A stretch of 64,000 nucleotides of DNA from a virus (IMGVR_UViG_3300047666_000603:1-64000), one strand, 5' to 3'. Numbered from the stretch's first letter, positions 10,913 through 58,986 are shown. Translations and numbers: made by a program. The notes: generated by a model from the letters alone, not told the origin.

Positions 10913-11426
10913 TACTTATTGTTTTCAGCAAATTTAAGGGATTAGATTCATTCTTGCAAGAGAAAACAGAGAATTAATTCCTTATTCTTATTTAGACTAA
11001 ATAAAAATAGCCCCATAATTGAACTTTAATTTTCCCATAAACTTAGATGTGGCGGCGGAGGCGATAGCCGACGGTGGCGCAGAGAAGTTTATTATTACGT
11101 AGCTTGTAACACTTGCTATTCCCGCACTGTGTATAACAAGCACTAATTATGTTAAAAAGTTTTTGTATATTTAACATACTATGTCAGGAATGTTGGCTAA
11201 CTTTGCAGAGTGTATCTTTTCTACCGCTAAACCCAACGTTAATTAGTGTGTATTTCTAACGCAAATCCACTAACGTTTTTTTTGTTGTGTTGGGTGTTAC
11301 CCAGTGTGTGAGAATAAGTTGGCAATACAGGATGCTTGCGCCCCACCCCCTCGTTTATTTATTTTCAATGTAGTGTTGGTTCTTCCAAATATATTTACGT
11401 ATATTTACGGAAACAAAACAGTAGCA

Positions 11427-12038
11427 ATGAAAAAAGTAACAAAGAAATTACAGCAGTTTATTGATTCAATTTCAACCATTGGAGACAGTACTATACCTGA
11501 TGATGATGGTAAGATTTACTATTCTAAAGTGGACGGCTCCTATTTAACAAGAGTTGGTATGGAAAACGATTTAAACTACCTATTGAAATTAGGAGTAAGT
11601 GAGCAAATACAGAGCGGGTATGGGGAGCCATCCACCGCTTGTATTGGATTTAACCCAACAGAGCAAAAATGGTACGGGTGGAGTCATAGAGCAATATATG
11701 GGTTTGGCGTTGGTAGTGAATGTAAAAAAGGATCGTGCGGATATTCCGCAAGCAATAAAAAAGATTTTGCAGAAGAAAATTTAAGGTGGTATTGCGACAC
11801 AGACATGGATGAAACGTATAAAGTAGACATTTCTGCAAAAGAGGCAATACAAGAAGGTAAGTTAGGTGTTAAAGTTGAATATACATATAACAATAAAGTG
11901 CCAAACGAATCTATGAGAAGCACCACTCATTTTGTTTTTGAGCCGTATCCAAAGAAATGGGGGAAAGGAGAATGGACTGCAAACTCACTTAATGAAGCAA
12001 GAGAAATGGCTGTAGATTTCGCTAAAGGAGTTTCCTAA
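11427..12038 (+). CDS. hypothetical phage protein
   Basis: ATG at 11427 after tandem TATATTTACG; IGFNPTEQKWYGWSHRA. Confidence 0.65.
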   Translation: MKKVTKKLQQFIDSISTIGDSTIPDDDGKIYYSKVDGSYLTRVGMENDLNYLLKLGVSEQIQSGYGEPSTACIGFNPTEQKWYGWSHRAIYGFGVGSECKKGSCGYSASNKKDFAEENLRWYCDTDMDETYKVDISAKEAIQEGKLGVKVEYTYNNKVPNESMRSTTHFVFEPYPKKWGKGEWTANSLNEAREMAVDFAKGVS

Positions 12039-12494: not shown

Positions 12495-12607
12495 CACCAA
12501 CAGAAGTCCTTTCCCTTAACGTGGCATTATTAATAAATGTAAATAATTAAGTGCGCAAGTGAATAAAAATATGCGTACATTAACCGATGATAATAAAAAC
12601 GTGAGCA

Positions 12608-12838
12608 ATGAATAAGCCTGAAAATAGTTTAGATGTAGAGGATAAAATAGTTGATATAGTAACAGACCTTTTAAGGGATGATATAACCAAAACAGAAGCA
12701 ATAGATAAGCTATTGATTTTACACAATGTTGTGGGGCGAAGCGAACAGTTAAAGGCTTTTGCTGAACACCTTGATGAAATGCATGGGGGTGAAGAATTTG
12801 CGGTAAATGAAGTTGAACCTTATTTAAAAAGCCTTTAA
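12608..12838 (+). CDS. cassette A1 ORF
   Basis: starts in hairpin loop; crosses GTT core in frame (HN-V-VGRSEQL). Confidence 0.65.
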   Translation: MNKPENSLDVEDKIVDIVTDLLRDDITKTEAIDKLLILHNVVGRSEQLKAFAEHLDEMHGGEEFAVNEVEPYLKSL

Positions 12839-12846
12839 TTGCCTAC

Positions 12847-12958
12847 AACGCTGAGTGTATGGCACGTTGCCAGCACTAACTTAATTAATAACACAAAGAT
12901 TAAAGATATGGTAAAAGATAATTTAGAAAACGAACAGCAATGTGATATACACATTGTT
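12847..12958 (+). repeat. attC-like hairpin site A2
   Basis: AAC-gctga-GTGTATGGCACGTTGC ... GCAATGTGATATACAC-att-GTT. Confidence 0.8.
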
Positions 12959-13126
12959 AGGCATAGTTGCGAGATGATAACCGAAGAGTATGTTTATAAA
13001 AACGACTTTAGATTTCAACGAACACAGAAACACGGTATTTGGTTTGTGACCTACGAAAACCACTTAATAACATTTGGACAATATAGACATGATTTAGAAG
13101 AATGGATTGATAGCAATTATGCCTAA
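12908..13126 (+). CDS. cassette A2 ORF
   Basis: ATG inside loop of site A2; CDIHI-V-RHS crosses core; stop in TAAC. Confidence 0.65.
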   Translation: MVKDNLENEQQCDIHIVRHSCEMITEEYVYKNDFRFQRTQKHGIWFVTYENHLITFGQYRHDLEEWIDSNYA

Positions 13127-13211
13127 CGGTTTGGCTAAGATTACTAGCCTAAGTAATGAACTAATCAATTAAAAACTAAGCATCATAAGGCTATTAATTT
13201 TAGCCGTTGTT
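13125..13211 (+). repeat. attC-like hairpin site A3
   Basis: AAC-ggttt-GGCTAAGATTACTAGCCT ... AGGCTATTAATTTTAGCC-gtt-GTT. Confidence 0.8.
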
Positions 13212-13234
13212 ATGGTGCGTTAATTAACTTGAAA

Positions 13235-13432
13235 ATGACAAAAGAAGAAAGGAATTTAGACCCACACAGACCTGCAAGATGCGCTATGTGGCTGTATGCT
13301 GACCAATATACTCAGCAGAAAGGTGGTAGTATGGATTTTTGGGATAAGCTATCTGATAGTGATAAAAACACTTGTAGAAGAATGGTAGAACAAATTTCTT
13401 GCACAAGACCTGAATCTGATGATGAGCGGTAA
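13235..13432 (+). CDS. cassette A3 ORF
   Basis: ORF lies wholly between GTT 13209 and AAC 13441. Confidence 0.6.
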   Translation: MTKEERNLDPHRPARCAMWLYADQYTQQKGGSMDFWDKLSDSDKNTCRRMVEQISCTRPESDDER

Positions 13433-13440
13433 TGCACCAT

Positions 13441-13485
13441 AACACCAAGAGAAGTGCCGTTACTTAATGGCATTTCTCGGCTGTT
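13441..13485 (+). repeat. conserved short anchor hairpin (array A end)
   Basis: AACACCAA-GAGAAGTGCCGTTA-ct-TAATGGCATTTCTC-GGCTGTT; near-identical to 35679-35724. Confidence 0.85.
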
Positions 13486-13533
13486 GGGCCGAGTTTTAAT
13501 TCGGAATTTCTTTTATTTTCCATTTCCTCTACG

Positions 13534-13541
13534 TATATTTG
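13534..13541 (+). promoter_or_regulatory. Bacteroidota-type -7 promoter element
   Basis: TATATTTG 17 bp before RNA ligase ATG; also at 25202, 34536 (+) and 22850, 56425, 59315 (-). Confidence 0.6.
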
Positions 13542-13558
13542 GCAAAAATCTAAAACTT

Positions 13559-14452
13559 ATGGAGTTCAAAAAGTATATGCATCTTGAGCGTTTTGACGCA
13601 ACAGAGGTGGAAAACATTGAAATAGGAACGTGCTATGTGTTCCCTAAAATAGACGGCACAAACGCTTCTGTTTGGCTTAATGACGCTGCTATTATCGCGG
13701 CGGGAAGTAGAACAAGAACACTTTCATTAGAAAAAGACAATGCGGGGTTTTATGAGTTTGCTAGTCAATGTTCTGAGATAGCTGATTTTTTAGACTCCCA
13801 CCCAACGCTTAGGCTTTACGGTGAATGGCTAGTTCCGCACAGCCTCAAAACATACAGAGAAAACGCTTGGAGAGATTTCTACGTATTTGATGTAATGGAT
13901 GATAGCGGAAGGTATTTACCTTATAATGAATACAAGTTGCTGTTAGATGAGTTTGATTTAAACTACATCCCGCCAATTAAAATCATCAAAAACGGAACAT
14001 ACGATGATTTTGTATTTCAAATGAACAGCAACAATAACTACCTTATTGAAGACGGCAAGGGAATGGGAGAAGGTGTTGTGCTAAAGAACTACTCATTTGT
14101 AAATAAGTACGGAAGAACGACGTGGGCTAAAATAGTAAGTTCTGAATTTAAAGCAAAGCATCACAAAGAAATGGGTGCGCCCGAAGTGGAATATAAGATG
14201 GTGGAGAGTGATATTGTAGATAAATTCGTCACTCAAGCATTATGCGAAAAAGTAAAGGCTAAAATAGAAATGGAGACAGGTGATTGGAAGTCGCAATACA
14301 TCCCCCGACTATTAAACACTGTTTACTACGATTTAGTTAGGGAGGAAATGTGGGAGATAGTAAAGGAATTCAAGAAGCCTAAGATTGATTTTAAAACCCT
14401 TCAACACTTTACAAATAACAAGACAAAAGAACACTTACCTAAAGTATTTTAA
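13559..14452 (+). CDS. RNA ligase (Rnl2-like nucleotidyltransferase)
   Basis: motif I PKIDGTN, LYGEW, FYVFDV, EGVVLK, WAKIV; adjacent to PNKP. Confidence 0.85.
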   Translation: MEFKKYMHLERFDATEVENIEIGTCYVFPKIDGTNASVWLNDAAIIAAGSRTRTLSLEKDNAGFYEFASQCSEIADFLDSHPTLRLYGEWLVPHSLKTYRENAWRDFYVFDVMDDSGRYLPYNEYKLLLDEFDLNYIPPIKIIKNGTYDDFVFQMNSNNNYLIEDGKGMGEGVVLKNYSFVNKYGRTTWAKIVSSEFKAKHHKEMGAPEVEYKMVESDIVDKFVTQALCEKVKAKIEMETGDWKSQYIPRLLNTVYYDLVREEMWEIVKEFKKPKIDFKTLQHFTNNKTKEHLPKVF

Positions 14453-14454
14453 AA

Positions 14455-15348
14455 ATGATAAGAGCATACATAGGAATTTCAGCGAGTGGGAAAACAACCC
14501 TTTGCAAGGGCGATATGAAATTAAATACTAATTCTGTTAGAGTTAATAGAGATGATTTACGTTTTGCTGTTTACGGTCTTGATTACGATTCTTACGGTGA
14601 TTATTTTAAGCGTGATGATTTTTACAGGTGTGAGCAGTTTATATCTGATTTAGCGGATAGAATTGTTTCTCGCGCCATATCTAAGGGAAAAGATGTTTAC
14701 ATAGACAACACTCATCTAAAGCAAAAATATCTAAAGAAATATTACACTTACGGAGTGGATGTTGAGCTTGTTTGGTGTGATGTAGATATTGATCTTGCGC
14801 TTCATAGAAACGTAAATAGAAAAGACCATTTTGTTGACTCTGAAATAATCAAAAAGCAAAATGACTCTTATGAAATTATAAAGAAGAATTGGAAATCACC
14901 CGATGAAGTTGCGGAAAGAAAGATACATAATAACTCATTAAAAAAGAAGTGTTACGTATTTGACATTGATGGAACGCTTGCAGATAAAGGAGATAGAAAC
15001 CCCTATGATTATTCGCGTGTTTCAGAAGATGGTCTTAGAAATTCAGTTCTTGACGCTTATTTAGCCCATTCTTTTGACGGAAAAGAGATGATTATTTGTA
15101 GCGGAAGAGATAGTTCATGCAGAACAGAAACAGAGGATTGGTTAACGAAGAACCAAGTTTATTACACCACTCTTTACATGAGGCAAGAGGGAGACTCAAG
15201 GGCTGATTGGAAAGTGAAAGAGGAGATGTGGGATGAGATATGTAAAGATTATTATATAGTGGCTATGTATGATGATAGAAATCAAGTTGTAGACCACGCT
15301 AGGAGTCTTGGTTTTGATGTATTTCAAGTACAGGAGGGAAACTTTTAA
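14455..15348 (+). CDS. pseT: polynucleotide 5'-kinase/3'-phosphatase
   Basis: P-loop GISASGKTT, RDDLR, IDNTHL; HAD domain FDIDGTLA, SGR, DDRNQVV. Confidence 0.9.
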   Translation: MIRAYIGISASGKTTLCKGDMKLNTNSVRVNRDDLRFAVYGLDYDSYGDYFKRDDFYRCEQFISDLADRIVSRAISKGKDVYIDNTHLKQKYLKKYYTYGVDVELVWCDVDIDLALHRNVNRKDHFVDSEIIKKQNDSYEIIKKNWKSPDEVAERKIHNNSLKKKCYVFDIDGTLADKGDRNPYDYSRVSEDGLRNSVLDAYLAHSFDGKEMIICSGRDSSCRTETEDWLTKNQVYYTTLYMRQEGDSRADWKVKEEMWDEICKDYYIVAMYDDRNQVVDHARSLGFDVFQVQEGNF

Positions 15349-17111
15349 TGATGGTAACAATATTTGATAGTTTGTACGACGACAAGCCTGTGTATTCTGA
15401 GGCTAATGATGTTTTAAGTGCTTTTGCTGTTCGCGGCAAGCATTACAGCACAATAGAGAGAATAAGAAACAGCAAAGAGAAGGGGGAGAGGGATGAGTTG
15501 AAGAAAACATTGCCCATTGTTTGCTTCGGTGGGAGATTTACAGCTAGGAAGAAAGCGGCCTTAGAGAAAGCATCCCAACTCATAATCTTAGACTTCGATG
15601 AGGGGGAAAACCTAAAAACTGTAAGAGAGAGAATGGAGAAATGGAATTGCACATATTCCTGCTTTTCCTCTCCAAGCGGCGGGGATAGATTCAAGGCTCT
15701 CGTGAAGATAGATGAGGTGAAGGATGATGAGGAATTTAAGGAGTATTTTGATTTCTTTGAGCGCAATTACAGCGTAGACATAAGTGGGAAGGACATTTCT
15801 CGTGCTTGTTTTTCTACATACGACCCCGATATATACATAAACGCAAACGCTAAAGTATTTACAAAAGAAATGCTAAAGAAATATGCCCCAAAGCCGCCAA
15901 GGAAACAAACAGACCAAAAGCTAATAGAGCTTGTGAGTAATTGGATACGGCTTGCTCCCCAAGGAACGAGACAACATAATTGCTGTAAAGCTGGATTTTA
16001 TGCGGGAGGTTTAACAAAGATGGGGCAATTAGAACAAACCTCAGCACTCGCGGCATTACATCAAGCAGCCCAAGATAGGGGCGGGGAAATAGATCAGAGC
16101 ATAAGAGCAATAAACGAGAGCTTCGAGCAAGGAAAGTTGCGGCCAATTCTAAACATAAACGAACTGGACAATGTAGTGAGGGGAATGAAGAAGAAGGTGG
16201 TGGATGTAAAGAGCCTGATTGTTTCCCCTGATAAGATGAACCAACAATCAGAAGACCTATACGAAGGAAGGCTTGAAATGGGAAGGGGAATAGGAATAGC
16301 CAACTTCGATAAGTTTGTGAGGTTTAGACAGAACTCATTTACGTTTATAGTAGGGAAGCGTGGAGTGGGGAAAACAGCCACCACCCTCTACCTATTATGT
16401 CTTGACGCGGCAAAGAACAACACCAAGTATTTAGTGTGCGGAATAGAGAACAGCAGCTTCTCGCTAAGAAACCAACTCATTAGTTTCTATTTAAGGGAAA
16501 GAGCCGCCGAAGCATACAAAACAAACAAAATAGGACTGAGAGCAGCGGAGGAATTTATAGACAGCCATTTCGTTTTCATACAATACGATGAGGCATGGGA
16601 GATAGCAGACATATTGAGCATAGCAAAACAGTTAGACGAGGAGCATAACTTCGGAGGGCTGTTCATAGACCCCTACAACGCTGTTACAGTTCCTAACGTA
16701 CCAAATACATTTAAGTACCACGTAGACTCTGCAAATGCTTGTAGAATGTTTAGCGACAGGCATTTTAGTGTATTGCTTACAGCCCACCCCAACAGCGCAG
16801 GGCAAAGAGAGGCGGGAACCCCCTCTGACGTGATGGCTGAACATGGCGGCACATTTCCCAATAAAGCGCACATGACAATGGTAGTGGATAGGAACGCGAA
16901 AGCAGAGGGTGAGGAGAAATACACGACAAGAGTGAGTGTAGATAAAGTGAGAGACAAGGATATATTTGGGGGAGACGAAACCGCAACGGAATTTCCAATA
17001 GTGATGAGGCTAAACCCGATAAACGCAACATTCATAGCCCACCTCCCGATTCACGGAGAATCAAACTATGAGTTTAAAACATACGACTTAATGTCGGAAG
17101 TAAAGAAATAA
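15348..17111 (+). CDS. primase-helicase (VirE-N/BT4734-like primase + SF4-like helicase)
   Basis: LIILDFD, FSSPSGG, KDISRACFSTYDP; Walker A GKRGVGKT, FIDPYN, TAHP. Confidence 0.8.
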   Translation: MMVTIFDSLYDDKPVYSEANDVLSAFAVRGKHYSTIERIRNSKEKGERDELKKTLPIVCFGGRFTARKKAALEKASQLIILDFDEGENLKTVRERMEKWNCTYSCFSSPSGGDRFKALVKIDEVKDDEEFKEYFDFFERNYSVDISGKDISRACFSTYDPDIYINANAKVFTKEMLKKYAPKPPRKQTDQKLIELVSNWIRLAPQGTRQHNCCKAGFYAGGLTKMGQLEQTSALAALHQAAQDRGGEIDQSIRAINESFEQGKLRPILNINELDNVVRGMKKKVVDVKSLIVSPDKMNQQSEDLYEGRLEMGRGIGIANFDKFVRFRQNSFTFIVGKRGVGKTATTLYLLCLDAAKNNTKYLVCGIENSSFSLRNQLISFYLRERAAEAYKTNKIGLRAAEEFIDSHFVFIQYDEAWEIADILSIAKQLDEEHNFGGLFIDPYNAVTVPNVPNTFKYHVDSANACRMFSDRHFSVLLTAHPNSAGQREAGTPSDVMAEHGGTFPNKAHMTMVVDRNAKAEGEEKYTTRVSVDKVRDKDIFGGDETATEFPIVMRLNPINATFIAHLPIHGESNYEFKTYDLMSEVKK

Positions 17112-17397
17112 ATGTTATATTGGCATATGGAAAACAAAGAAATTTCGGTTCTTTTGAAAGAAAGACTACAAGACATTGAAAAAAAATTAAAAGGTAGAGA
17201 TTTTTATTTAATTAAATATGTAAAAGAAGAGGTTATGATGTCCTATTCTGATGGATATAAAGACGCTTCTGATGTTGCTAGAAAGATTTTTTACAAATGA
17301 AAGAATTATTATCAATAGTTATTCCAATATTGCTTGCTGTTTTGTTATTTTGGTTTTGTTTTATTAGAACCCAAGATTGGGACGGGGGAGATGTATT

Positions 17398-18270
17398 ATG
17401 AAAGAAAAATTACTTGTAAGTTTCAGCGGCGGCGAAACATCTGCGTATATGGTGTGGTGGGTAAAGAAACACTGGGCTAATAAATACGATATAAAGTTTG
17501 TATTCGCCAACACTGGTGAGGAAAACGAAGAAACACTTTTGTTTACTAAAAAGTGCCAAGAATATTTTAATATTGATTTAGTTTGGGTGGAGGCTGTATT
17601 TCATAAAGAAAAAGGAAAAGGAACTACTCATAAGGTGGTTCCTTTTGAAGCGGCGGAAAGAAGTAATAAACTATTTATGGATATGGCTGCGGTATATGGG
17701 ATACCAAACCAAATGTTTCCCCACTGCAACAGGGAGCTAAAACTAGCCCCAATTAAGTCTTACTTGAGAAGTGTTGGGTGGAAAAAATATCAAACAGCTA
17801 TAGGGATAAGAAATGATGAAATAGATAGGGTTAACGTAAATAGAGAAAAATATAGGCTTTTATATCCGTTAGTTACAGATCAACCAATGACAAAGCCTAA
17901 AATAAACTTTTGGTGGTCACAACAACCATTCAGGTTAAATTTAAAGGGTTATCAAGGAAACTGCAAAACGTGTTGGAAAAAGGGTGATAATAAATTGTAT
18001 CAAATAGCAAAAGAAAATAGACGGTTTTTTGACTCATTTAAAGAAGTTGAAAAAACTTACACTAATTTTGTTCCAGAAGGAAGAAGTGCTACGGATGAAA
18101 AGATTACATTTTTTAGAAGGGGGAGGTCTACGGAGCAGATATTAAAAGAAGCGGAAAATTTTAACGGTGTAGTAAGAGATGATTCCGCCGAAATAAATTA
18201 TCAAACATCAATACTAGATTACGATGAAAGTGAAAGTTGTGATATTTATGCAATGTGTGGGGATAATTAA
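17398..18270 (+). CDS. PAPS-reductase-like (adenine nucleotide alpha-hydrolase) protein
   Basis: VSFSGGETS, FANTGEE, CNRELK, GIRNDE, GNCKTCWKK. Confidence 0.75.
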   Translation: MKEKLLVSFSGGETSAYMVWWVKKHWANKYDIKFVFANTGEENEETLLFTKKCQEYFNIDLVWVEAVFHKEKGKGTTHKVVPFEAAERSNKLFMDMAAVYGIPNQMFPHCNRELKLAPIKSYLRSVGWKKYQTAIGIRNDEIDRVNVNREKYRLLYPLVTDQPMTKPKINFWWSQQPFRLNLKGYQGNCKTCWKKGDNKLYQIAKENRRFFDSFKEVEKTYTNFVPEGRSATDEKITFFRRGRSTEQILKEAENFNGVVRDDSAEINYQTSILDYDESESCDIYAMCGDN

Positions 18271-18387
18271 AACAGCACTATGAGCGAACAAAGAAGAAGA
18301 CGACGTAAGATGCAAAGGGAATACGAGAAGTATATGCGAGAAATACGTAGGGATGCTTTTAAGAGAGCCGAGGAGCAGAAGGAAGAG

Positions 18388-18455
18388 AAATGATTTTTAA
18401 CACTAAGCTAAGTTCCGTTATTTCAATGGAATTTAGCGGCTGTTAGAAGTTGTTT
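18388..18455 (+). repeat. solo (empty) anchor site of the cassette system
   Basis: AACACTAA-GCTAAGTTCCGTT...AATGGAATTTAGC-GGCTGTT; outer flanks AAATGATTTTTAAC/GTTAGAAGTTGTTT pair with each other (WC or G-T at all 14 positions). Confidence 0.8.
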
Positions 18456-18462
18456 CTTTTTT

Positions 18463-18498
18463 CAATAACAAGGAGCAAAACAGAGAGTGTTACTTTTG
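18463..18498 (+). promoter_or_regulatory. putative late promoter CAATAAC-N21-TACTTTTG
   Basis: one of 7 copies with identical spacing ahead of virion/lysis genes. Confidence 0.7.
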
Positions 18499-18518
18499 GC
18501 TAAACAAAACCGAAAGAA

Positions 18519-20666
18519 ATGTCTGTCACAAGTACTTCTGCGAAAATAAAGTTTACCATAGGTAGTTTTGACTACGATACAACGTTAGTTCTTCCCGCCA
18601 CAACCGAAGAAAATAAACTCACATTAGAGTTTGAGGAATTAGTAACAAGTCAGCTTACGGGTTGGGGTGATATTCCTAGAGATGTATACGTTCTATTAGA
18701 TGTAAAGTTTGAGGGAGAGGATTGGTACAAGAACCCTCAATACGACAGCCCAAGCACAACCCTAGTCCCAACAGACCCCGATATTACAATTGTTCCAGAC
18801 GCAAATCCAGCAACGGTAGAGACTGTAACGATAAACAACCTTGTGCCTATGGTGACAGATATAAGTGGAGACATTTCTATTGGAACATACATAGTGAACG
18901 CTAAGTTTGTTTATTGGGCTAATGACACGGCATTTGGCTCTAGTGTTACAGCATTTACGGCAGACTTATCATGGGAGAGTAAGGAGCCAACACTTTCAGA
19001 GTGGTACGACACCCAAACCCCAAAACTACAAATAACAGACGGTCAAAGCTACGTAATAGACGGGGTGACGGCAGATAGAGACACGGAGTTTGTTCTTTCC
19101 CCACCACAAAACAGAGCGGAAGTGGTAAACACCTTTGACAACATTCAAAAGGTGTCTTACACAAGTTTTTGGACGGGAGGTAATGAGATGACCTATACGA
19201 TTCTTCTCACCTACACATTCACCACCTACATCATTGAAAACGTACAGCAAGACTACAGTGCATTTACGGTGTACAATATAGACAACTGCAAAATATTTAA
19301 TTGCCTCAAAGACCAATACGACATTTGGCAAGCGGCAACTTGCGGAACAAAGAATGAAGTGGTGGCTAAGGACATGTTGTACAAAGCAACCTCAATAGCC
19401 TTACAAATAACACAAGGGTTAGGATGCAATAGCGATGAATTGAGTGCGCTTATAGAAGACTTCAACACATTAGTAGACTGCGACTGCGGCTGCTTAGATG
19501 AAACACCAACACAACTTGGAAGCACAAGCACTGTAACGGCCACAAACCGACAAACTGTAACAGCAGACACAGCCACCACAACCATAGACCTAAGCGCGGG
19601 AAGTAACGTAACAATAAACGTAAGCGCAACTACAGAATTAGACATCACTAATATTGAGCAGTTTACAAACTACAGATTAATATTTGTAGCCTCAGCAGGA
19701 GGGGAAGTGATTTCATTCCCATCAGCCGACTTTGAGGATGACAACGGTGTAGTGGGTGATATAACGTTAGATGTGCGCGGCGTTCTTATACTTGATTTTT
19801 ACGCATACCTATCCACTAAGCTAACATTAGTGAGTAGAAGTGATGCTGATGATTACGATAGAGATTTACAGCAAGTTTCCGCTACAACAGCAGCAACATC
19901 TGTAGATTTGAACGAGGGAAACATAGTTAATGTAGCTCTTGCTGTAGGGGGAGGCACAACAGAAATGAGTGTCACAAATATAAAGGAAAACGACGAATAT
20001 ATGTTTATATTTAGTCGGGGTTTTTCTACGCAAGAAGCAACATTCTCTTCCGATTTCAATGGCCCAAATGCCACTGTACCTTCTGTAACACCACTACTTG
20101 ATGATAAAGTGGTTCTTTCATTTATAGCCACATCATCTAGTGAATTGACACTAACATCGAGAAGTGATGAAGTTACAAGCGCGGTGGAGACAGTGGTGGG
20201 AACGGCAACAGAAATAGACATTGACTCCGCAGATGCTCAAAATCCTATTGTTTCTTTAGCGGTGGAAGTAACAGCATCATTAGCTCTAGCCGACTCCGCA
20301 TTGCAGAGTGGTGATAACGTGAGTGTGTTAACGAATGATGCGGGGTATATTGTTGGTTCTTTTCAAGATGTTGGAGCGCAAACAAGCCCTTACACCATTA
20401 ATTTTGCAAGCGGTAGTATAGCGTATTTAAGTTTTGCTAATGCCGCCATAACTATAGATGCTTCTAGCATAATTGAGGGAAGTGAGTATAAGATAATAAT
20501 TAGAAATTCAGGCGCAGGCTCACAAGACGTAACCCTAACAACAGACCCTTTTTGGTCTTTTGCAGCCATTTCCGTTGGTTCAACGCAAGTATTGGGGATT
20601 ACTTTTGTTTGTGTTGATATTGGGGGTACAAATTACCTAGTTCCAACAGGTCAGCAAATAAACTAA
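18519..20666 (+). CDS. virion structural protein with repeated beta-rich C-terminal domains
   Basis: first gene after late motif; acidic and Thr-rich; CDCGC; repeats TIDLSAGSNV / SVDLNEGNIV / TINFASGSIA. Confidence 0.55.
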   Translation: MSVTSTSAKIKFTIGSFDYDTTLVLPATTEENKLTLEFEELVTSQLTGWGDIPRDVYVLLDVKFEGEDWYKNPQYDSPSTTLVPTDPDITIVPDANPATVETVTINNLVPMVTDISGDISIGTYIVNAKFVYWANDTAFGSSVTAFTADLSWESKEPTLSEWYDTQTPKLQITDGQSYVIDGVTADRDTEFVLSPPQNRAEVVNTFDNIQKVSYTSFWTGGNEMTYTILLTYTFTTYIIENVQQDYSAFTVYNIDNCKIFNCLKDQYDIWQAATCGTKNEVVAKDMLYKATSIALQITQGLGCNSDELSALIEDFNTLVDCDCGCLDETPTQLGSTSTVTATNRQTVTADTATTTIDLSAGSNVTINVSATTELDITNIEQFTNYRLIFVASAGGEVISFPSADFEDDNGVVGDITLDVRGVLILDFYAYLSTKLTLVSRSDADDYDRDLQQVSATTAATSVDLNEGNIVNVALAVGGGTTEMSVTNIKENDEYMFIFSRGFSTQEATFSSDFNGPNATVPSVTPLLDDKVVLSFIATSSSELTLTSRSDEVTSAVETVVGTATEIDIDSADAQNPIVSLAVEVTASLALADSALQSGDNVSVLTNDAGYIVGSFQDVGAQTSPYTINFASGSIAYLSFANAAITIDASSIIEGSEYKIIIRNSGAGSQDVTLTTDPFWSFAAISVGSTQVLGITFVCVDIGGTNYLVPTGQQIN

Positions 20667-20669
20667 TAA

Positions 20670-21332
20670 ATGCTTATAAACGAAATATACGAGGTGTTTA
20701 GGCAGATGGTAAACTCCCAACAGTCGGGAGGGTATTTCAACGCCACAAATTTCAACAACTATTGCGACTACGCACAGAACGCTGTAATAAACGAACTAAG
20801 CGAAATAGCCGACTACAACCAAAGGGTGATAAGCCTTTCCTCGGACGTTTTAAAAACAGCCACAATAAACGTTGTAGACGGTATAGCAGCTCTACCAAGC
20901 GACTATTTCATATACTTGGATGCAAACGCTATGTTCTACGACAATGATGCTAAGAAGTTCGAGGAATACCCCGCAGACTATGTGGGCAAAAGCGAGAGAG
21001 GTGAAAGACTTAGAAGCAAGATAGTAGACCCACAATCAGACTACCCTATAATTACAGAGGGGTTTGGAGGGCTTTTAGTAGAGCCGAGTGAAGTGAGTAG
21101 GATAAAATTAACATATTACTTTCAGCCTGACGCGCCAGTGTGGGCGGGAACAGACACCGTACCTCCCGTATTTGACCCCAACACAAGCACAGACTTCGTA
21201 TTGGGTGATAAGTTCAAGAACATATTAGTGAATAAAATCCTTTCCTACGCGGGAATAGAAATACGAGAGCCTTATTTGCTCCAAGCGACAACACAAAGCC
21301 TTATAAAACCAACAGGAAACCCCACTAACTAA
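20670..21332 (+). CDS. head-tail ring/tubular protein (crAss-like)
   Basis: INEIYEVFRQMVNSQQSGGYF..FN...AQ; ILSYAGIEIRE. Confidence 0.6.
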   Translation: MLINEIYEVFRQMVNSQQSGGYFNATNFNNYCDYAQNAVINELSEIADYNQRVISLSSDVLKTATINVVDGIAALPSDYFIYLDANAMFYDNDAKKFEEYPADYVGKSERGERLRSKIVDPQSDYPIITEGFGGLLVEPSEVSRIKLTYYFQPDAPVWAGTDTVPPVFDPNTSTDFVLGDKFKNILVNKILSYAGIEIREPYLLQATTQSLIKPTGNPTN

Positions 21333-21958
21333 TGGCAACACCACACCCTATATCTCTAAGCAAAATAGGTGAGAGAGTTAAGAGGCTGTTAAGCGCAGGA
21401 AAAGACCTTGTAGAAAACAGGGTGACACAAAGGGATGCTGAATTAGCTGTAGCCGAAGCAAGGGATGAATCAATAGTGGAGTACTTAGGGCAGCTGAAAG
21501 CTGCGGGAGAACCCGCTATGCCATTTGATTTTATAAGCGAGAAAACCGTAACAGCAGAGAAGTCGGGGAACCTACACAAAGCAACCCTACCCACACGTCC
21601 TTTATCAATAGGAGGAAAAGCAAGCGGAATATTTACAGTGGTGTTTGAACAAGACCCCTCACACGAAATATTCCCAACAACAATAAGCCACAACACAATG
21701 TTTAAAGGCCAACCCGCAGAGAACATGGAGAGTGATGCTTATTACACACCATTCGAGGACACTTTAAGAATATGGGGGTTAGAAACCGATAGCTGCAATA
21801 TAATAGTTCAATACGTACAAGTGGGAGAACAGTTTGATGCAGATGAATATTTCGCTGTGCCACCCGAACTTATTGATACGATAGTGGCTAAAGCCGTTAA
21901 AATGCTCTCAATGCAACTTTCCCAAGAAGACCCATTTACCGACGCGAAGAACCTTTAA
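21332..21958 (+). CDS. putative ring/adaptor virion protein
   Basis: coupled to previous gene; C-terminal FAVPPELIDTIV. Confidence 0.5.
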   Translation: MATPHPISLSKIGERVKRLLSAGKDLVENRVTQRDAELAVAEARDESIVEYLGQLKAAGEPAMPFDFISEKTVTAEKSGNLHKATLPTRPLSIGGKASGIFTVVFEQDPSHEIFPTTISHNTMFKGQPAENMESDAYYTPFEDTLRIWGLETDSCNIIVQYVQVGEQFDADEYFAVPPELIDTIVAKAVKMLSMQLSQEDPFTDAKNL

Positions 21959-22821
21959 CTAATCACTTGCCCTTTAAATAGGTTGAAGTTCATTACAATA
22001 TCCCCACTTTCTACAAGTATTATAATATGTTCTGCGTAACGCGCACGACTCTTTGTTTGATAAACAAGGGCCACCTTTCCATTAAACGGTAGTTTAGGAT
22101 TATGAAGCCTAGCTAATCTTTGGTGTTTCGCGGGAACACAGTCATACTTTATTTGAGCCGCCTTATTACCCGTAATAATAATACCATTACGCTCATACTC
22201 CAAACCCTCAAACTCATCCATCTTATAGAACTTACCGTAGGCTTCTCCATCAACAGACGCCACTCTGCTTTTCATTACAGCCCAATACTGCACTTCTTTC
22301 TGCCAAAACTCAACACGTCTTCCGTGTATGTATTCTATTTCAGAGCCAACAGGAATATCATCCTCATTGCTATTCACCACCTCAAGAATGTTTGGATTCT
22401 CCGCATTATACAAAGCAATCCCATTCTTCTCCTCTATCTTATGCTCTTTCGTTTTACCCAACACCCAATTATCACTATAAGCCGTTGTAATATCCGCACC
22501 AACAAAAGCAACCCCACCATCCTTAAAATGATAAATAGGCTTGTCTTCATACTCACCAAAATGCTCATCACCAATAAAACTACTATCAACAACAGTGTTA
22601 GCCACCCATAGATGAGAGCCTATTGGATACTTAGCCCCTTCCGTTCTACCTATAACCTCCACATGATTTGAGAAGTTAGTGTATTTACCCACACCTGTAC
22701 GCGGCCTCATTTCAATTTCAATACCTGTGTCTCCAAGTTCAAACTTATCAAAGCCATCCTTCACCTCTACGGAGAAGTATTTCTCGTTAACATCTTCTAA
22801 GTTTTCAACAATCCTTGTCAT
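21955..22821 (-). CDS. GroES-like co-chaperonin-domain protein
   Basis: repeated (E)KNGI.L / ERNGIII...V...GSEI beta motifs reminiscent of GroES. Confidence 0.4.
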   Translation of the reverse strand: MTRIVENLEDVNEKYFSVEVKDGFDKFELGDTGIEIEMRPRTGVGKYTNFSNHVEVIGRTEGAKYPIGSHLWVANTVVDSSFIGDEHFGEYEDKPIYHFKDGGVAFVGADITTAYSDNWVLGKTKEHKIEEKNGIALYNAENPNILEVVNSNEDDIPVGSEIEYIHGRRVEFWQKEVQYWAVMKSRVASVDGEAYGKFYKMDEFEGLEYERNGIIITGNKAAQIKYDCVPAKHQRLARLHNPKLPFNGKVALVYQTKSRARYAEHIIILVESGDIVMNFNLFKGQVIS

Positions 22822-23023
22822 ATAGCTATAAGTGTTTTATATTTACGTGCAAATATAAACAAAATGAACGAAGAAACAAAGGACTTAAAAATGTGGTGTG
22901 TAGAACAGGCACTAACCGCTGCGGGCAAACAATACACAGGCCCGAACGAGGGATTCCCCGAATACCATAACAACACAACTCTCATCGAATTAGCAATCAA
23001 AATATACGACTTTCTCAAAGAAG

Positions 23024-23479
23024 ATGGACACACAGACACTAATTAACGCGATAGGGGATATTCATTTCCCTAATGAAAAAGCAATACTTAAAGTGAGGGC
23101 TTCGGTCTGGTATAAAAGCCTATCAATTAAGGAGAAATCACAAACCGAAGAGGACGTAAGGAGGCTACTCGATCAAACACAAAAAGCTCTTTTAGGGGTG
23201 CATGAGGTTTACTCCACCCCATTTGACCGCATCACCATACTTTCAATGTTCCATGAGCCAGTGAATCTAATATGGAAAGAGGACAAAACGGTATTAAACG
23301 GTAAGCGGGTGAAGCGGCATTACTTCTCATTAGACAACGTAGACTACAAGCCAAAAACAATAGCAGACTTTGTTAGTTTGATAGATAGCTTGGAAAGGCA
23401 TAAGCTCACTCCTAAGTTTTCGGGGGATAAAAGCTCGGCAGCATTACTATGGAACAAGAGCCGCAATAACACTCAATAG
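23024..23479 (+). CDS. hypothetical protein
   Basis: 151-aa ORF in compact operon. Confidence 0.5.
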   Translation: MDTQTLINAIGDIHFPNEKAILKVRASVWYKSLSIKEKSQTEEDVRRLLDQTQKALLGVHEVYSTPFDRITILSMFHEPVNLIWKEDKTVLNGKRVKRHYFSLDNVDYKPKTIADFVSLIDSLERHKLTPKFSGDKSSAALLWNKSRNNTQ

Positions 23480-23724
23480 CCATGAAGGGAGTAATTTCGG
23501 GAAAACAGAACAGCATGGAGGAAATCTACGTACACTACACAGACGAAGATGGGGAAGAACACACATCCATACATTTCGTAGACCCCGAACTAGCGAACTA
23601 CATACAGGCGTTAGAGAATGACATAGAGGCGTTATCTACGGAAGTGGAGGGCGCAGAGGATACAGCGGAGTATTGGAAACGAATGTTAACCGTCCACATC
23701 ACAAGCGGAATAAAAGCTAACTAA

Positions 23725-24036
23725 ATGGATTGTAAAGAGTTAAAAGTATTTTACGAAAAGGTGACGGAAAGCCCTCACTTTATGGTGTACCTCACATTGC
23801 AGAATAAGTTAAGGCAAGTGTGTGAGAGTTTCGATGGAGTGTTCATTGACATCACCTCCGACGACAAAACCTTTGACAACCTAATGAAGTTTAACAAGCA
23901 AGCATTAGACGTGTTAGAGGACATGGAGAAGATATGGAGCAAGATAGATTCATCAAAACAAGCGGAACTTCGAGCAAGCCAAAGGGAGGCGGGAGAAGCA
24001 TCATTAGAAAGTATGCTAAAGAAATTCAGAGAATGA
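23725..24036 (+). CDS. hypothetical helical protein (possible small terminase)
   Basis: 103-aa helical ORF upstream of packaging genes; function guessed only. Confidence 0.35.
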   Translation: MDCKELKVFYEKVTESPHFMVYLTLQNKLRQVCESFDGVFIDITSDDKTFDNLMKFNKQALDVLEDMEKIWSKIDSSKQAELRASQREAGEASLESMLKKFRE

Positions 24037-24141
24037 GCATTTTTACAGGAGTGAACACAACGTCAGATGATGAGTTTGACGAGATAGTGTATTTCCTATA
24101 CGGAGAATTTGAACATTGCGAAACAACCTATATTACAACAC

Positions 24142-25191
24142 ATGAGTAGTAAGAGAGTTCGTCTGAAACAAGATGAAGTAGAAGTTGTCGATAATTACAG
24201 GAGAATAAAAGAGGAAGCGAAAGCGGAGGGTATTCCTGTTTCAGCCATAAGTTCTGGTTGGATAAAGAATAAGAGCGCAAGCCTACATTTCAAGAACCCT
24301 TTATTTGAAGGGAGCGGCGTAAAACCCGAAGAAGTGAAAAAAAAGTTTCGCGAGGAGATGATGCAATACTCCCCGAAATACGAAGCAATAGTTAGGCCCA
24401 AGTTAAAAGAGCCGCACCTATTTGTTTTAAGCATAGCAGACCTCCATATAGGTAAGCTATCCACTCCAACAAGCACTAGGGAGAAATACGGAACGAAAGT
24501 GGCTGTAAAGAGAGCTAAGGAGGCTACAAACGCATTACTCAATCGCGCACTAGGATACGACATAGATCAAATACTACTTCCATGCGGAAATGACCTACTT
24601 CATGTGGACAACTCAAACAAAACCACCACAAGAGGAACCCCGCAAGATGTAGATGGGAATTGGCACGATAACTTCACCGCAGCAAGAAAACTGTATGTAG
24701 AGATAATAGAACAACTCATGCAAGTGGCAGACGTACACATTTGCCACATACCGTCAAACCACGATTACGTAACAGGGTATTGCCTAACAGATGCACTTTA
24801 CTGTTGGTTTAATAAGTCGGACAACGTAACATTCGACCTAGACATGAACCACAGAAAGTATTATCAATACAGCAATAATCTAATTGGTGTTAGTCATGGT
24901 GATGGAGCGAAGATGCCCGAACTCCCGCTTCTTATGGCAAACGAATCAGCAAAACAATGGGCAGACACAGACTACAGATACTTTTATTTAGGCCACATAC
25001 ATCATAAGGATGTATTTAAGTTTAGAAGCGGAAAAGACTACCAAGGAGTGACGGTGGAGTATTTAAGAAGCCCAAGCGCGGCGGATAGGTGGCACAGCGA
25101 CAATGGCTATCAACACGCTAAAACAGCAATAGAAGCATTTATACATAGCCCAAATGAAGGTCAGGTGGCGAGAATAACCTACAACTTCTAG
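24142..25191 (+). CDS. calcineurin-like metallophosphoesterase
   Basis: ADLHIG, GNDLLH, SNHD, HGD, GHIHH. Confidence 0.85.
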   Translation: MSSKRVRLKQDEVEVVDNYRRIKEEAKAEGIPVSAISSGWIKNKSASLHFKNPLFEGSGVKPEEVKKKFREEMMQYSPKYEAIVRPKLKEPHLFVLSIADLHIGKLSTPTSTREKYGTKVAVKRAKEATNALLNRALGYDIDQILLPCGNDLLHVDNSNKTTTRGTPQDVDGNWHDNFTAARKLYVEIIEQLMQVADVHICHIPSNHDYVTGYCLTDALYCWFNKSDNVTFDLDMNHRKYYQYSNNLIGVSHGDGAKMPELPLLMANESAKQWADTDYRYFYLGHIHHKDVFKFRSGKDYQGVTVEYLRSPSAADRWHSDNGYQHAKTAIEAFIHSPNEGQVARITYNF

Positions 25192-25294
25192 TTTTTATTC
25201 GTATATTTGGAGGGTTAATTACAACGGTTTAAATATAGTGTCGTGGCGCACCCAATAAATGCCACTAAACTTAAAAATTGGTAAATATTTGATT

Positions 25295-25510
25295 ATGAAA
25301 AACAGACTTAAATTTAACCTGCGCTATGCACTATATTTTGTGTTGTGTGTAGTGCTTTTATCTAGCTGCGTTGAACGTAGGTGCTATGATGAAGAGCATA
25401 TACTGTTAATAACCGAAAATGCCTTTTTAGAAGGATATAAAGCAGCATTAATGAAGCAGCACCAAGATAGTGCGTGGAATAATGTGAAACAGCAATACAA
25501 GTTTGACTAG
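25295..25510 (+). CDS. cassette B1 ORF, predicted lipoprotein
   Basis: MKNRLKFNLRYALYFVLCVVLLSS-C lipobox. Confidence 0.65.
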   Translation: MKNRLKFNLRYALYFVLCVVLLSSCVERRCYDEEHILLITENAFLEGYKAALMKQHQDSAWNNVKQQYKFD

Positions 25511-25560
25511 TATTACACACAATGGACAAGGCTAAACGAAGTAATTTAAAAAGATTTGAA

Positions 25561-25827
25561 ATGATAAAACTAAAAGCAGAAGTAAACAAAAGTGCAGTAA
25601 TGAGAGAATTACAAGCAAAAGCAATTGAAAGATTTAAAGACTCTTGGCAACCTGAATTACAAGTACAAGCCTACATGAATGGAGCGCATGACCTTTTTAA
25701 ATTATTGCGTTTAGGTGATGTTAGCGTTTCGTTTACGGATAGATTATTTGAAATAGCTTATGATTACGAATCTTCCGTAAGCGAACGAATGGAACAAATA
25801 AAGACCTTATTAGTAAATGAACGCTAA
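25561..25827 (+). CDS. cassette B2 ORF
   Basis: about 60% encoded within the hairpin site; LGD-V-SVS crosses core; stop in TAAC. Confidence 0.6.
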   Translation: MIKLKAEVNKSAVMRELQAKAIERFKDSWQPELQVQAYMNGAHDLFKLLRLGDVSVSFTDRLFEIAYDYESSVSERMEQIKTLLVNER

Positions 25828-25880
25828 CACCAAGCTATAAAGCGTTTCAATGCTTTTATAGCGTCTGTTGTGATTTAATA

Positions 25881-30677: not shown

Positions 30678-30697
30678 AGATATAATTTATCAAATTT

Positions 30698-30733
30698 CAA
30701 TAACAAATAGAGAACAAATATACACTTATTTTG
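30698..30733 (+). promoter_or_regulatory. putative late promoter CAATAAC-N21-TTATTTTG
   Basis: upstream of scaffold/MCP. Confidence 0.65.
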
Positions 30734-30754
30734 CATTAAACCAAATTATTGTAT

Positions 30755-34532: not shown

Positions 34533-34602
34533 GTTTATATTTGCTCATAACGTTAAATGTAAAAAGCATTTTAATGATTTTTAAATAATGTTGTAAGTAG
34601 TT

Positions 34603-58437: not shown

Positions 58438-58732
58438 AGATCAAGCTGTAGCCCAAGCTAATTTCAATTTAGGGGCTTTTCAACTCCGCGAGAGATTTAA
58501 AACAGCCCTATTAAGAGAGGAGAAGCTGCATGAATTATGGGCAAGCACCTCCCGCCAATTACAAACACAACAGACCCTCACAAAGAAAACAGAGGAGCAG
58601 CTTGCATTAAGAGAGCAGGAGATGAAGGACATTCAAAAAACCCATAAGAAAGAGAAACGTAAGAAATTCATCCAGAACACAGGGGTGGGGCTTGTAATTG
58701 GAATCGTGGGGACGCTGCTGTTAACCAATTAA
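58310..58732 (+). CDS. spanin-like protein (signal peptide + coiled coil + C-terminal TM)
   Basis: overlaps previous gene by 128 bp in another frame. Confidence 0.5.
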   Translation: MQRLLLTVLLFTSLTMMCGAQSLNLSKRQLISFNGETVLFLTKDQAVAQANFNLGAFQLRERFKTALLREEKLHELWASTSRQLQTQQTLTKKTEEQLALREQEMKDIQKTHKKEKRKKFIQNTGVGLVIGIVGTLLLTN

Positions 58733-58953
58733 GGTGTTTTTGTTTGTTCAAGGCTTTCTAAATACGCATCTATAATGTCATCGTTAATATCAGGGCAATT
58801 CCACTCATTACTAAGGTGGCTTGCAAAATCTTTTAACTGTTCTCTTTGCTCTACAACACTAAATAAAGCCAATACCTGATCCTCTAATTCAATAACAGGC
58901 ATCGTTTCATCGTTGTAATATTCCTTAAACAGTTTTTTTATTTTTTCTTTCAT
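58729..58953 (-). CDS. cassette D2 ORF, similar to A1
   Basis: FS-V-VEQREQLKDFA...YLESL versus HN-V-VGRSEQLKAFA...YLKSL. Confidence 0.6.
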   Translation of the reverse strand: MKEKIKKLFKEYYNDETMPVIELEDQVLALFSVVEQREQLKDFASHLSNEWNCPDINDDIIDAYLESLEQTKTP

Positions 58954-58986
58954 TGGTACAGTCTTTATTATTTTCGTTGGTAGTAA

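What the first reader, a model, noticed from the sequence alone, without database searches (positions are those of the whole stretch)
12518..25828. Inverted cassette logic: genes start inside the recombination hairpin and read through the core
ORFs A1 (12608), A2 (12908), B1 (25295), B2 (25561) and D2 (58953, minus) have their ATG within the loop of the upstream hairpin and cross the right arm and GTT. In A1, A2, B2 and D2 the GTT is an in-frame Val codon (HN-V-VGRS, HI-V-RHS, GD-V-SVS, FS-V-VEQ). Non-canonical stem pairs are predominantly G-T on the sense strand. Inference: the hairpin travels with the downstream gene with crossover at the left AAC, so genes are inverted relative to canonical integrons and the sense strand plays the role of the folded bottom strand. 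If crossover is at GTT instead, shuffling would create in-frame N-/C-terminal protein chimeras.
Basis: partly seen in the sequence, partly recalled or inferred. Interest (0 to 1): 0.8.

Follow-up and report, generated by a model that had tools for sequence, protein, structure and literature searches.

The report
Phage genes assembled in frame at hairpins
In this marine phage, small genes are built from interchangeable front and back halves that meet in frame at a valine codon beside a conserved DNA hairpin, a gene-shuffling layout resembling bacterial integrons but wired the other way round.

Summary
The window is 64 kb of a complete 73-kb phage genome of the marine Flavobacteriaceae-phage type. 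The observation largely holds. A2, B1 and B2 start inside hairpins that beat 299-300 of 300 shuffles. D2 is marginal. A1's stem has decayed, and its left AAC is at 12582, not 12518.

Relatives support all five:
- The junction valine is GTT and in frame in 16 of 16, 15 of 15 and 7 of 8 loci. GTT makes up 25% of this phage's valine codons.
- The A1 and B2 front halves each recur on a dozen or more unrelated back halves. The A2 and B2 back halves recur behind unrelated front halves.
- Hairpins stay with their downstream flank in 20 pairs of loci and with their upstream flank in 0.
- The sense strand is the more stable fold in 14 of 14 structures.

The genome has no tyrosine recombinase, serine recombinase or Y1 transposase. 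The same hairpins lie where attC sites were reported in Polaribacter phage P12002L (PMC9892861). The recombination mechanism is unproven, and an RNA-level role is a live rival. First-reader notes on this same genome raised the same idea; none came from other DNA.

The parts
12582..12730 (+). A1 leader hairpin: left AAC 12582-12584, left arm about 12590-12606, ATG 12608 in the loop, translated right arm 12709-12724, junction GTT 12728-12730
Evidence: Homologous hairpins are significant in 8 of 8 related loci. Coordinates.
12608..12838 (+). ORF A1 (76 aa): MEDKIF-type leader joined at Val41 to a body
   Evidence: The leader is shared by 30 of 32 aligned rows, and the bodies differ.
12728..12849 (+). 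A1 body module, from GTT to the next AAC; arms 12728-12737 and 12841-12849
   Evidence: Read. The piece 12641-12850 in run X5 ends here.
12847..12958 (+). A2 leader hairpin: AAC 12847-12849, stems 12855-12864 / 12943-12952, about 78-nt loop holding ATG 12908, GTT 12956-12958
   Evidence: 1 of 300; 0 of 200.
12908..13126 (+). ORF A2 (72 aa): QC-type leader (16 codons) joined at Val17 to a conserved body
12956..13127 (+). A2 body module with 15-nt inverted arms 12956-12970 / 13113-13127; the stop codon lies in the right arm
13125..13208 (+). Hairpin between A2 and the next module (AAC 13125-13127, GTT 13206-13208)
   Evidence: Found as a separate piece 13124-13227 / 13125-13213 in runs X4 and X5.
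13209..13443 (+). Module with its own complete ORF (13235-13432) between arms 13208-13222 / 13430-13444: the layout without a leader fusion
13441..13485 (+). Compact hairpin closing array A; same type at 18399-18444, 25826-25868 and 35679-35724
25223..25344 (+). B1 leader hairpin: AAC 25223-25225, perfect 10-bp stem 25231-25240 / 25329-25338, 87-nt loop holding ATG 25295, GTT 25342-25344
   Evidence: 0 of 300.
25295..25510 (+). ORF B1 (71 aa): predicted lipoprotein whose signal peptide is encoded across the right arm, the GTT and the body arm
   Evidence: Translation. The lipobox was read by eye against the recalled consensus.
25343..25522 (+). B1 body module, arms 25343-25356 / 25509-25522 (86% complementary)
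25532..25714 (+). B2 leader hairpin: 22-nt arms 25532-25553 / 25693-25714, ATG 25561 just after the left arm, closing GTT 25709-25711
   Evidence: 0 of 300.
25561..25827 (+). ORF B2 (88 aa from 25561): 53-aa MIKLK-type leader joined at Val to a 34-aa body
   Evidence: 29 of 31 homologues begin at this Met.
25720..25828 (+). B2 body module, from in-frame GTT 25720-25722 to AAC 25826-25828; arms 25716-25728 / 25820-25832
58855..58978 (-). D2 leader hairpin: AAC 58978-58976, left arm 58970-58955, ATG 58953, right arm 58876-58860, GTT 58857-58855
   Evidence: 25 of 300. A homologous 17-bp stem is seen in L025.
58729..58953 (-). ORF D2 (74 aa): its body is a paralogue of the A1 body behind a different leader

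Best explanation
A1, A2, B1, B2 and D2 are real mosaic genes of a hairpin-delimited module system that is widespread in phages of marine Flavobacteriia.

Two kinds of module alternate along the sense strand:
- Leader modules run from AAC to GTT. A stem encloses a loop that holds the untranslated leader, the start codon and an N-terminal peptide of 13 to 53 residues. The right arm of the stem is itself translated.
- Body modules run from GTT to AAC. Their own 10 to 15-nt inverted arms enclose the C-terminal part of the protein. The stop codon lies in or next to the right arm.

Leader and body meet at a GTT that is read as valine in phase 0, so any leader can be joined to any body without breaking the frame.

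Shown here:
- The modules reassort among phages, with breakpoints at the AAC and GTT junctions.
- A hairpin stays with the DNA downstream of it.
- The stems co-vary.
- The sense strand is the strand that folds best.

Inferred:
- Reassortment is driven by a structure-specific reaction at the folded sense strand, analogous to integron attC recombination but with the site attached to the downstream gene.
- An enzyme not yet identified, from the phage or the host, carries it out.
- The result is fast combinatorial variation of small accessory proteins, possibly anti-defence proteins.
For: Hairpins are real:
- A2, B1 and B2 beat 299, 300 and 300 of 300 shuffles.
- The compact form matches an exact 22-base pattern in 43 IMG/VR contigs.
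- Upstream hairpins are significant in 10 of 15 A2-body loci, with compensatory changes between the non-coding left arm and the coding right arm. They are significant in 8 of 8 MEDKIF loci.

Starts lie in the loop:
- The B1 signal peptide spans the right arm and the GTT.
- 29 of 31 B2 homologues start at the Met of 25561.
- Several bodies behind the QC-type leader contain no Met at all.
- The loop part of the MEDKIF leader has pN/pS 0.20, with pS 0.36.

The junction is constrained at the nucleotide level:
- GTT in phase 0 in 16 of 16, 15 of 15 and 7 of 8 loci.
- GTT is 180 of 722 Val codons in 16 large genes of this phage.

Reassortment:
- The A2 body (75-95% identical) sits behind leaders of 13-48 codons of at least 8 kinds.
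- The MEDKIF leader precedes a dozen or more bodies.
- The MIKLK leader precedes a dozen or more bodies, and the B2 body follows 5 other leaders.

Body arms are complementary:
- 22 distinct pairs have at least 12 of 15 Watson-Crick pairs. A G.T wobble sits at arm position 11 in 17 of them.
- About 13 of 30 loci have a near-perfect partner upstream and none downstream.

Linkage: 20 pairs share hairpin plus right flank, against 0 sharing hairpin plus left flank.

Strand: G.T against A.C is 17:1 and 19:1. The sense strand is more stable in 14 of 14 structures.

Other metagenomes hold module-sized pieces ending at 12728/12730, 12850, 13124/13125 and 13440/13441.

The outer ends of arrays pair with each other (and by hand for array B).
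Against: - No recombinase was found. PF00589, PF01797 and PF00239 give nothing in six frames. Only 28 ORFs went through Pfam and 10 through PHROGs.
- The A1 and D2 stems are weak in the window.
- 5 of 15 A2-body loci have no left arm within 80 nt of the start.
- One of those loci, L095, has an in-frame stop in the right arm. Met23 of A2 is nearly invariant. The A2 body may therefore also be made from an internal start.
- The 17:0 linkage of the compact hairpin may partly reflect a conserved core gene on its right.
- Loci were fetched with patterns that fix parts of the hairpins, so they are an ascertained sample.
- The two deletion-like joints have short sides (24 and 25 letters), which the tool warns are unreliable.
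- Nothing here separates folded DNA from folded RNA.
Confidence: 0.6

Rival explanations
1. The hairpins act in the mRNA, not in DNA. They would be processing sites, stability elements or translational controls that wrap the start region and close each cistron. The mosaic pattern would then be a by-product of ordinary homologous or microhomology recombination between these conserved sequences, as proposed for the promoter-stem-loop cassettes (PeSLs) of T4-type phages.
For: - Hairpins always read in the sense of the genes, on either genome strand.
- The wobble pairs are G.T on the sense strand, 17:1 and 19:1.
- The sense advantage is larger with RNA than with DNA parameters.
- Start codons sit in the loops.
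- No recombinase was found.
- Conserved hairpins of 40-110 nt are islands of similarity between otherwise unlike phages, which is enough for recombination by homology.
- The PeSL precedent comes from the abstract of PMC2839356.
Against: - Homology-driven exchange does not by itself explain why each body has its own unique pair of complementary arms, or why the outer ends of arrays pair.
- The junction is fixed to one trinucleotide and one phase.
- No Rfam family matches.
- No RNA run holding this DNA was listed, so nothing could be tested on transcripts.
Confidence: 0.28
2. This is an ordinary cluster of integron attC sites without an integrase (CALIN). Canonical cassettes (ORF followed by its own attC) would be moved by a host integron integrase acting on the bottom strand with crossover at G|TT. 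Reading through the site would be incidental.
For: - The same hairpin type lies between the methyltransferase genes of Polaribacter phage P12002L. Qi et al. 2023 (PMC9892861, passages read) report a CALIN there, with one site recombined into attI1 by IntI1 in E. coli.
- AAC and GTT bound every site.
- Each body's start is complementary to the stretch before the next AAC, as in integron cassettes.
Against: - Hairpins never co-segregate with the upstream ORF (0 of 20 informative pairs).
- The more stable strand is the sense strand.
- The complementary arms are 13-15 nt, not 7.
- The purine/pyrimidine pattern of the integron core sites is met only in some sites (read).
- The loop carries a translated, conserved leader.
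Confidence: 0.07
3. It is chance plus ORF-calling artefact. The true starts would lie downstream of the GTT, and the open frames upstream would be accidental.
For: - Met23 of A2 is nearly invariant, and one locus has a stop in the leader.
- The A1 and D2 stems are not significant in the window.
Against: - B1 needs the loop start for its signal peptide.
- Several bodies have no Met.
- Leaders of 40-53 residues stay open and are conserved as protein.
- 29 of 31 B2 homologues start at the loop Met.
Confidence: 0.03

Closest known systems
Integron gene cassettes and attC sites, in particular clusters of attC sites without integrase (CALINs) reported in virulent phages (Qi et al. 2023, PMC9892861; passages read)
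   Same: - Imperfect hairpins bounded by AAC and GTT.
- Small promoter-poor genes in one orientation.
- Each unit's first bases are complementary to the bases before the next AAC.
- The outer ends of arrays look like one split site.
- The hairpins of Polaribacter phage P12002L that lie where that paper draws its attC sites are of this very type.
   Different: - There is no integrase.
- The site stays with the downstream gene, not the upstream one (20:0).
- The sense strand folds best.
- The arms are 13-15 nt, with a fixed G.T wobble.
- The loop can hold the start and N-terminal domain of the next gene, which is fused in frame at the GTT.
- I could not see that paper's supplementary coordinates, so the identity of its attC1 and attC2 with the hairpins at 30035 and 30935 rests on position between the methyltransferase genes only.
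PeSL regulatory cassettes of T4-type phages (Arbiol et al. 2010, PMC2839356, abstract read; Comeau et al. 2014, PMC4122927, search listing only)
   Same: Short conserved stem-loop motifs between small non-essential genes in variable regions of a lytic phage. Exchange between them shuffles modules.
   Different: - PeSLs are a promoter plus a terminator lying between genes.
- Here the element overlaps coding sequence, fixes a reading phase and joins protein halves.
- The bodies carry their own complementary arms.
- No promoter was shown here.
Polymorphic proteins with a constant N-terminal part and swappable C-terminal parts demarcated by a short conserved motif (for example CdiA at VENN; recalled, not checked here)
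   Same: A conserved N-terminal part and unrelated C-terminal parts joined at a fixed short motif, with recombination at that motif.
   Different: - These proteins are tiny (56-132 aa).
- Both halves vary.
- The junction is defined by a nucleic-acid hairpin and a single codon.

Membership tests
Integron / CALIN | Integron integrase (tyrosine recombinase) next to the array; not required for a CALIN | tested here: not met
   PF00589 gives no match at E<=1 in six frames of the whole 73-kb genome. The control rings in 14 of 14 genomes.
Integron / CALIN | Sites are imperfect palindromes with inverse core RYYYAAC and core GTTRRRY (consensus recalled) | tested here: inconclusive
   AAC and GTT are constant. 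The flanking purine/pyrimidine pattern fits some sites (the A2 arms) and not others (read).
Integron / CALIN | The start of a cassette is complementary to the inverse core of its own site | tested here: met
   22 distinct arm pairs have at least 12 of 15 Watson-Crick pairs. Partners are found upstream and not downstream.
Integron / CALIN | The site travels with the ORF upstream of it (crossover at G|TT) | tested here: not met
   0 pairs share hairpin plus left flank; 20 pairs share hairpin plus right flank.
Integron / CALIN | The reactive folded strand is the bottom strand, antisense to the cassette ORFs | tested here: not met
   Only stability could be tested. The sense strand is more stable in 14 of 14 structures. 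G.T against A.C is 36:2. Reactivity itself is not testable here.
Integron / CALIN | Called by attC models (HattCI, IntegronFinder) and recombined by IntI | not testable with these tools
   These programs are not on hand. Qi et al. report both for a site of P12002L, where the same hairpin type is present.
PeSL (T4-type phages) | Early promoter joined to a terminator stem-loop between genes | not tested
   The stem-loop is present. Promoter activity is unknown, and the promoter scan on offer does not cover Bacteroidota-type promoters, so it was not run.
IS200/IS605-type hairpin-guided elements | Y1 HUH transposase | tested here: not met
   PF01797 gives no match in six frames.
Any Rfam RNA family | Match at the gathering score | tested here: not met
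   0 matches in the 64-kb window.

The most novel reading that the evidence does not exclude
A phage-borne system without an integrase shuffles protein-coding modules the way exon shuffling does. Sense-strand hairpins act as portable joints that carry a start codon and an N-terminal domain in their loop. A phase-0 GTT at the foot of the hairpin lets any such front half be recombined with any back half. Marine phages would thereby generate libraries of small chimeric proteins, perhaps anti-defence proteins, by structure-guided recombination of opposite polarity to integrons.
Probability: 0.45. Interest if true: 0.9.

Novelty: new variant of a known kind. Interest (0 to 1): 0.8.

Why it matters
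Integrons are the textbook case of recombination at folded DNA hairpins, and they move whole genes. Here the same kind of site appears to move halves of genes while keeping the reading frame, in lytic phages that carry no integrase.

If a dedicated reaction is behind this, it would be a new route to protein innovation in viruses. It would explain part of the hypervariable small-gene regions of marine phages. It would also give a natural, phase-keeping joint for combinatorial protein libraries.

The result re-reads the attC-like sites already reported in a cultured Polaribacter phage, which makes the question testable at the bench. Array A lies directly downstream of a Tad6-family Thoeris inhibitor. 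The shuffled proteins may therefore belong to the arms race with host defence, but that is only context.

Tried and rejected
- Close relatives among deposited phages: only weak, short hits. The first attempt was over the size limit.
- Loci fetched through the RNA ligase and exonuclease genes held no such hairpins and were not used further.
- A loose scan for GTT...AAC arms gave only modest enrichment: 7 found against 1.7 expected at 11 of 12. At 11 of 15 over all loci it gave mostly noise, 950 hits. I replaced it with arms next to oriented hairpins.
- An array-A outer partner for the arm after 13483 was not found within 3 kb.
- Pfam and PHROGs on the small ORFs gave nothing above threshold.
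- Sequencing runs: no RNA holder was listed, so nothing can be said on expression.
- In one search, parts of the stretch without cover in X4 and X5 are not evidence of absence.
- The two skipping joints (12751 to 12836, 12959 to 13124) have sides of 25 and 24 letters. I treat them as hints only.
- The search for related loci with the A2 alignment in viral contigs gave only 2 loci. The metagenome scan gave 19.
- Literature searches found the PeSL papers and Qi et al. 2023. They found no description of leaders inside hairpin loops or of in-frame module exchange in phages. Subscription journals are not covered. The supplements of Qi et al. were not opened.

Full report
WHAT THE DNA IS

The window is the first 64 kb of a 73,238-bp virus record with a 127-bp terminal overlap, so the assembly is circular. 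Its genes include:
- RNA ligase, polynucleotide kinase, primase-helicase, PAPS reductase and an exonuclease;
- NAPRTase and a Tad6-family Thoeris inhibitor;
- a PD-(D/E)XK nuclease and an HNH protein.

The only nucleotide similarity to deposited phages is weak, to Tenacibaculum and Cellulophaga phages. No tRNA and no Rfam family were found.

THE HAIRPIN FAMILY

Four compact hairpins of one type lie on the plus strand at 13441-13485, 18399-18444, 25826-25868 and 35679-35724. They share conserved flanks and a conserved loop, while their 9-bp stems differ in a compensatory way. An exact pattern with 22 fixed bases drawn from them matches 43 IMG/VR contigs.

All hairpins of the family have one plan. 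AAC opens the left strand and GTT closes the right strand. The top of the stem ends in a GTT on the left that pairs with AAT on the right through a G.T wobble.

Some members have the short loop replaced by 50-150 nt.

THE SECOND KIND OF UNIT

The 13-15 nt after a GTT are complementary to the 13-15 nt before the next AAC, 90-580 nt downstream.
- In the window this holds for 12956-12970 / 13113-13127, 13208-13222 / 13430-13444, 25716-25728 / 25820-25832 and 34590-34607 / 34712-34729.
- In 30 distinct loci with a compact hairpin, about 13 have a near-perfect partner upstream. None has one downstream (mean best match 11.2 against 9.4 of 15).
- Among 22 distinct arm pairs, 17 have a G.T wobble at position 11.

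The region is therefore a chain of alternating AAC...GTT hairpins and GTT...AAC bodies.

CHECK OF THE OBSERVATION

In brief:
- The A2, B1 and B2 hairpins are far beyond chance.
- D2 is marginal.
- The GTT is an in-frame Val in A1, A2, B2 and D2. In B2 the in-frame GTT is the second of two.
- The sense-strand G.T bias is strong: 36 G.T against 2 A.C, under a criterion blind to the difference.
- All 14 structures tested fold better on the sense strand with either parameter set.

ARE THE STARTS REALLY IN THE LOOPS?

Evidence that they are:
- B1's first 25 residues form a lipoprotein-type signal peptide, read by eye against the recalled lipobox consensus. It is encoded across the right arm, the GTT and the body arm, so B1 must start in the loop.
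- Of 31 B2 homologues, 29 begin at the Met of 25561.
- In 16 of 16 distinct loci with the A2-type hairpin, a loop ATG opens a frame that runs through the right arm and the GTT into the body.
- Several of those bodies, among them two zinc-ribbon-like ones, contain no Met.
- The loop part of the A1-type leader has pS 0.36 and pN 0.07 across 9 sequences, ratio 0.20. This is the signature of a translated, selected peptide.
- The right-arm part has lower pS and a ratio of 0.57, as expected if the stem also constrains it.

Evidence against a universal need for the leader:
- One A2-body locus has a stop in the right arm.
- Met23 of A2 is nearly invariant.
- Two database proteins start at or after Met23.

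THE JUNCTION

The junction Val is GTT in 16 of 16, 15 of 15 and 7 of 8 loci of three sets. The first two sets share two loci. GTT is only 180 of 722 Val codons in this phage's large genes. The codon is therefore fixed by the nucleic acid, not by the protein.

REASSORTMENT

Three protein searches that were not biased by hairpin type give the same picture.
- A2 (37 clusters): the body from Val17 to the end is 75-95% identical. The part before it varies from about 13 to about 60 residues and falls into at least 8 unalignable kinds.
- A1 (32 rows including D2): 30 rows share the MEDKIF-type leader almost unchanged and then carry a dozen or more unrelated bodies. A1's own body recurs behind two other leaders, in P0040 and in the window's D2.
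- B2 (31 clusters): 24 share the 53-residue MIKLK-type leader and carry a dozen or more bodies, many of them Cys-rich. B2's body recurs behind 5 other leader kinds in 7 clusters.

In every case the switch is at the Val.

WHICH SIDE DOES THE HAIRPIN GO WITH?

I compared 60-nt left flank, hairpin and 60-nt right flank among distinct loci.

| Hairpin type | Records | Hairpin + right flank shared, left differs | Hairpin + left flank shared, right differs | Hairpin alone shared |
|---|---|---|---|---|
| Compact | 35 | 17 pairs | 0 | 92 pairs (low threshold, because the pattern fixes half the bases) |
| QC-type leader | 19 | 1 pair | 0 | 18 pairs |
| MEDKIF leader | 7 | 2 pairs | 0 | 19 pairs |

Further evidence:
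- In the 15 A2-body loci, the upstream right arm is always of the same class, while the downstream hairpins are of at least 8 kinds.
- Contigs from four other ice-metagenome runs match module-sized pieces that end at 12728/12730, 12850, 13124/13125, about 13213 and 13440/13441.
- One near-identical contig (1 difference in 210) follows A1 to 12850 and then diverges.

The left AAC is thus the commonest and most recent breakpoint. The GTT and the top of the stem are further breakpoints.

ARRAYS LOOK LIKE INSERTIONS INTO ONE SITE

- The bases before the first AAC of the array at 34550 pair with the bases after the last GTT at 35722 (11 of 13).
- The solo site at 18399 has self-complementary flanks.
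- For array B, I paired 9 of 9 positions by hand.
- No such partner was found for array A.

COMPARISON WITH KNOWN SYSTEMS

Integron integrase, serine recombinase and Y1 transposase are absent in six frames.

Polaribacter phage P12002L has two hairpins of this type between its methyltransferase genes. The body arms enclose one methyltransferase gene, and another GTT lies inside gp37. This is where Qi et al. 2023 drew a CALIN. They report that one of its sites recombined with attI1 under IntI1 in E. coli (passages read; supplements not seen).

The system shares with integrons the AAC/GTT-bounded hairpin, the complementarity of a unit's two ends and the split-site look of arrays. It fails the tests of linkage to the upstream ORF and of bottom-strand preference. 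It adds the translated leader in the loop.

PeSLs of T4-type phages (abstract read) are the nearest functional analogue for shuffling without a dedicated recombinase.

MECHANISM

- Shown: the anatomy, the phase rule, the covariation, the strand bias, the reassortment and its polarity.
- Inferred: a structure-specific reaction on the folded sense strand makes the exchanges. That strand would be single-stranded as lagging-strand template if genes and forks run the same way.
- Live rival: the stems work in the mRNA, and exchanges come from recombination between conserved sequences. I cannot separate the two here.

VERDICT

- The integron label fits as an analogy, not as membership.
- In-frame, hairpin-guided exchange of protein halves is not described in the papers my searches reached.

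Noticed in passing
window 34590-34729: A module bounded by 18-nt arms has no ORF but holds a canonical-looking tRNA T-arm. ARAGORN and Rfam at gathering score find nothing. In related loci the same upstream hairpin is followed by a small ORF instead.
   Followed up: partly
window 11304-12038, 3982-5457 and 5834-6625: There is a Tad6-family type I Thoeris inhibitor (Pfam 1.9e-37) directly upstream of array A. Further upstream are an NAPRTase (2.5e-39) and weak phosphoribosyl-transferase hits. This gives an anti-defence and NAD-salvage context.
   Followed up: no
window 12748 (out-of-frame GTT inside A1) and alignment A3: Eight proteins with the B2-type leader continue after the junction Val with the same six residues that open the A1 body, and then diverge. 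This suggests a second, nested junction about 20 nt after the first. A perfect 12-nt inverted repeat 12749-12760 / 12827-12838 lies there.
   Followed up: partly
protein P0063: In one 132-aa protein the MEDKIF-type leader is fused to a body with a precomputed Pfam hit, PF16473, apparently only the C-terminal part of that domain. Junction exchange may therefore also truncate genes.
   Followed up: no
window 13436-13499, run X5: Summed contig depth is 342 over the compact hairpin, against 0-30 beside it. The hairpin is a high-copy element shared by many contigs of that ice metagenome, and assemblies break at it.
   Followed up: no
locus L080 (Polaribacter phage P12002L) record 29250-31120, minus strand: The body arms enclose the methyltransferase gene gp35 (12 of 14 pairs). 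A GTT-arm inside gp37 pairs with the stretch before the next hairpin (13.5 of 14, with the G.T at position 11). The architecture thus exists in a cultured phage.
   Followed up: partly
window 13454-15348: RNA ligase and polynucleotide kinase genes follow array A directly. This is probably a tRNA-repair pair, and a link to the hairpins is pure speculation.
   Followed up: no
locus L095 about 1220-1236 and locus L094: L095 is an A2-body locus with an in-frame stop inside the right arm. L094 has lost the left arm by exchange inside the loop. Both are decayed states of the leader hairpin.
   Followed up: partly
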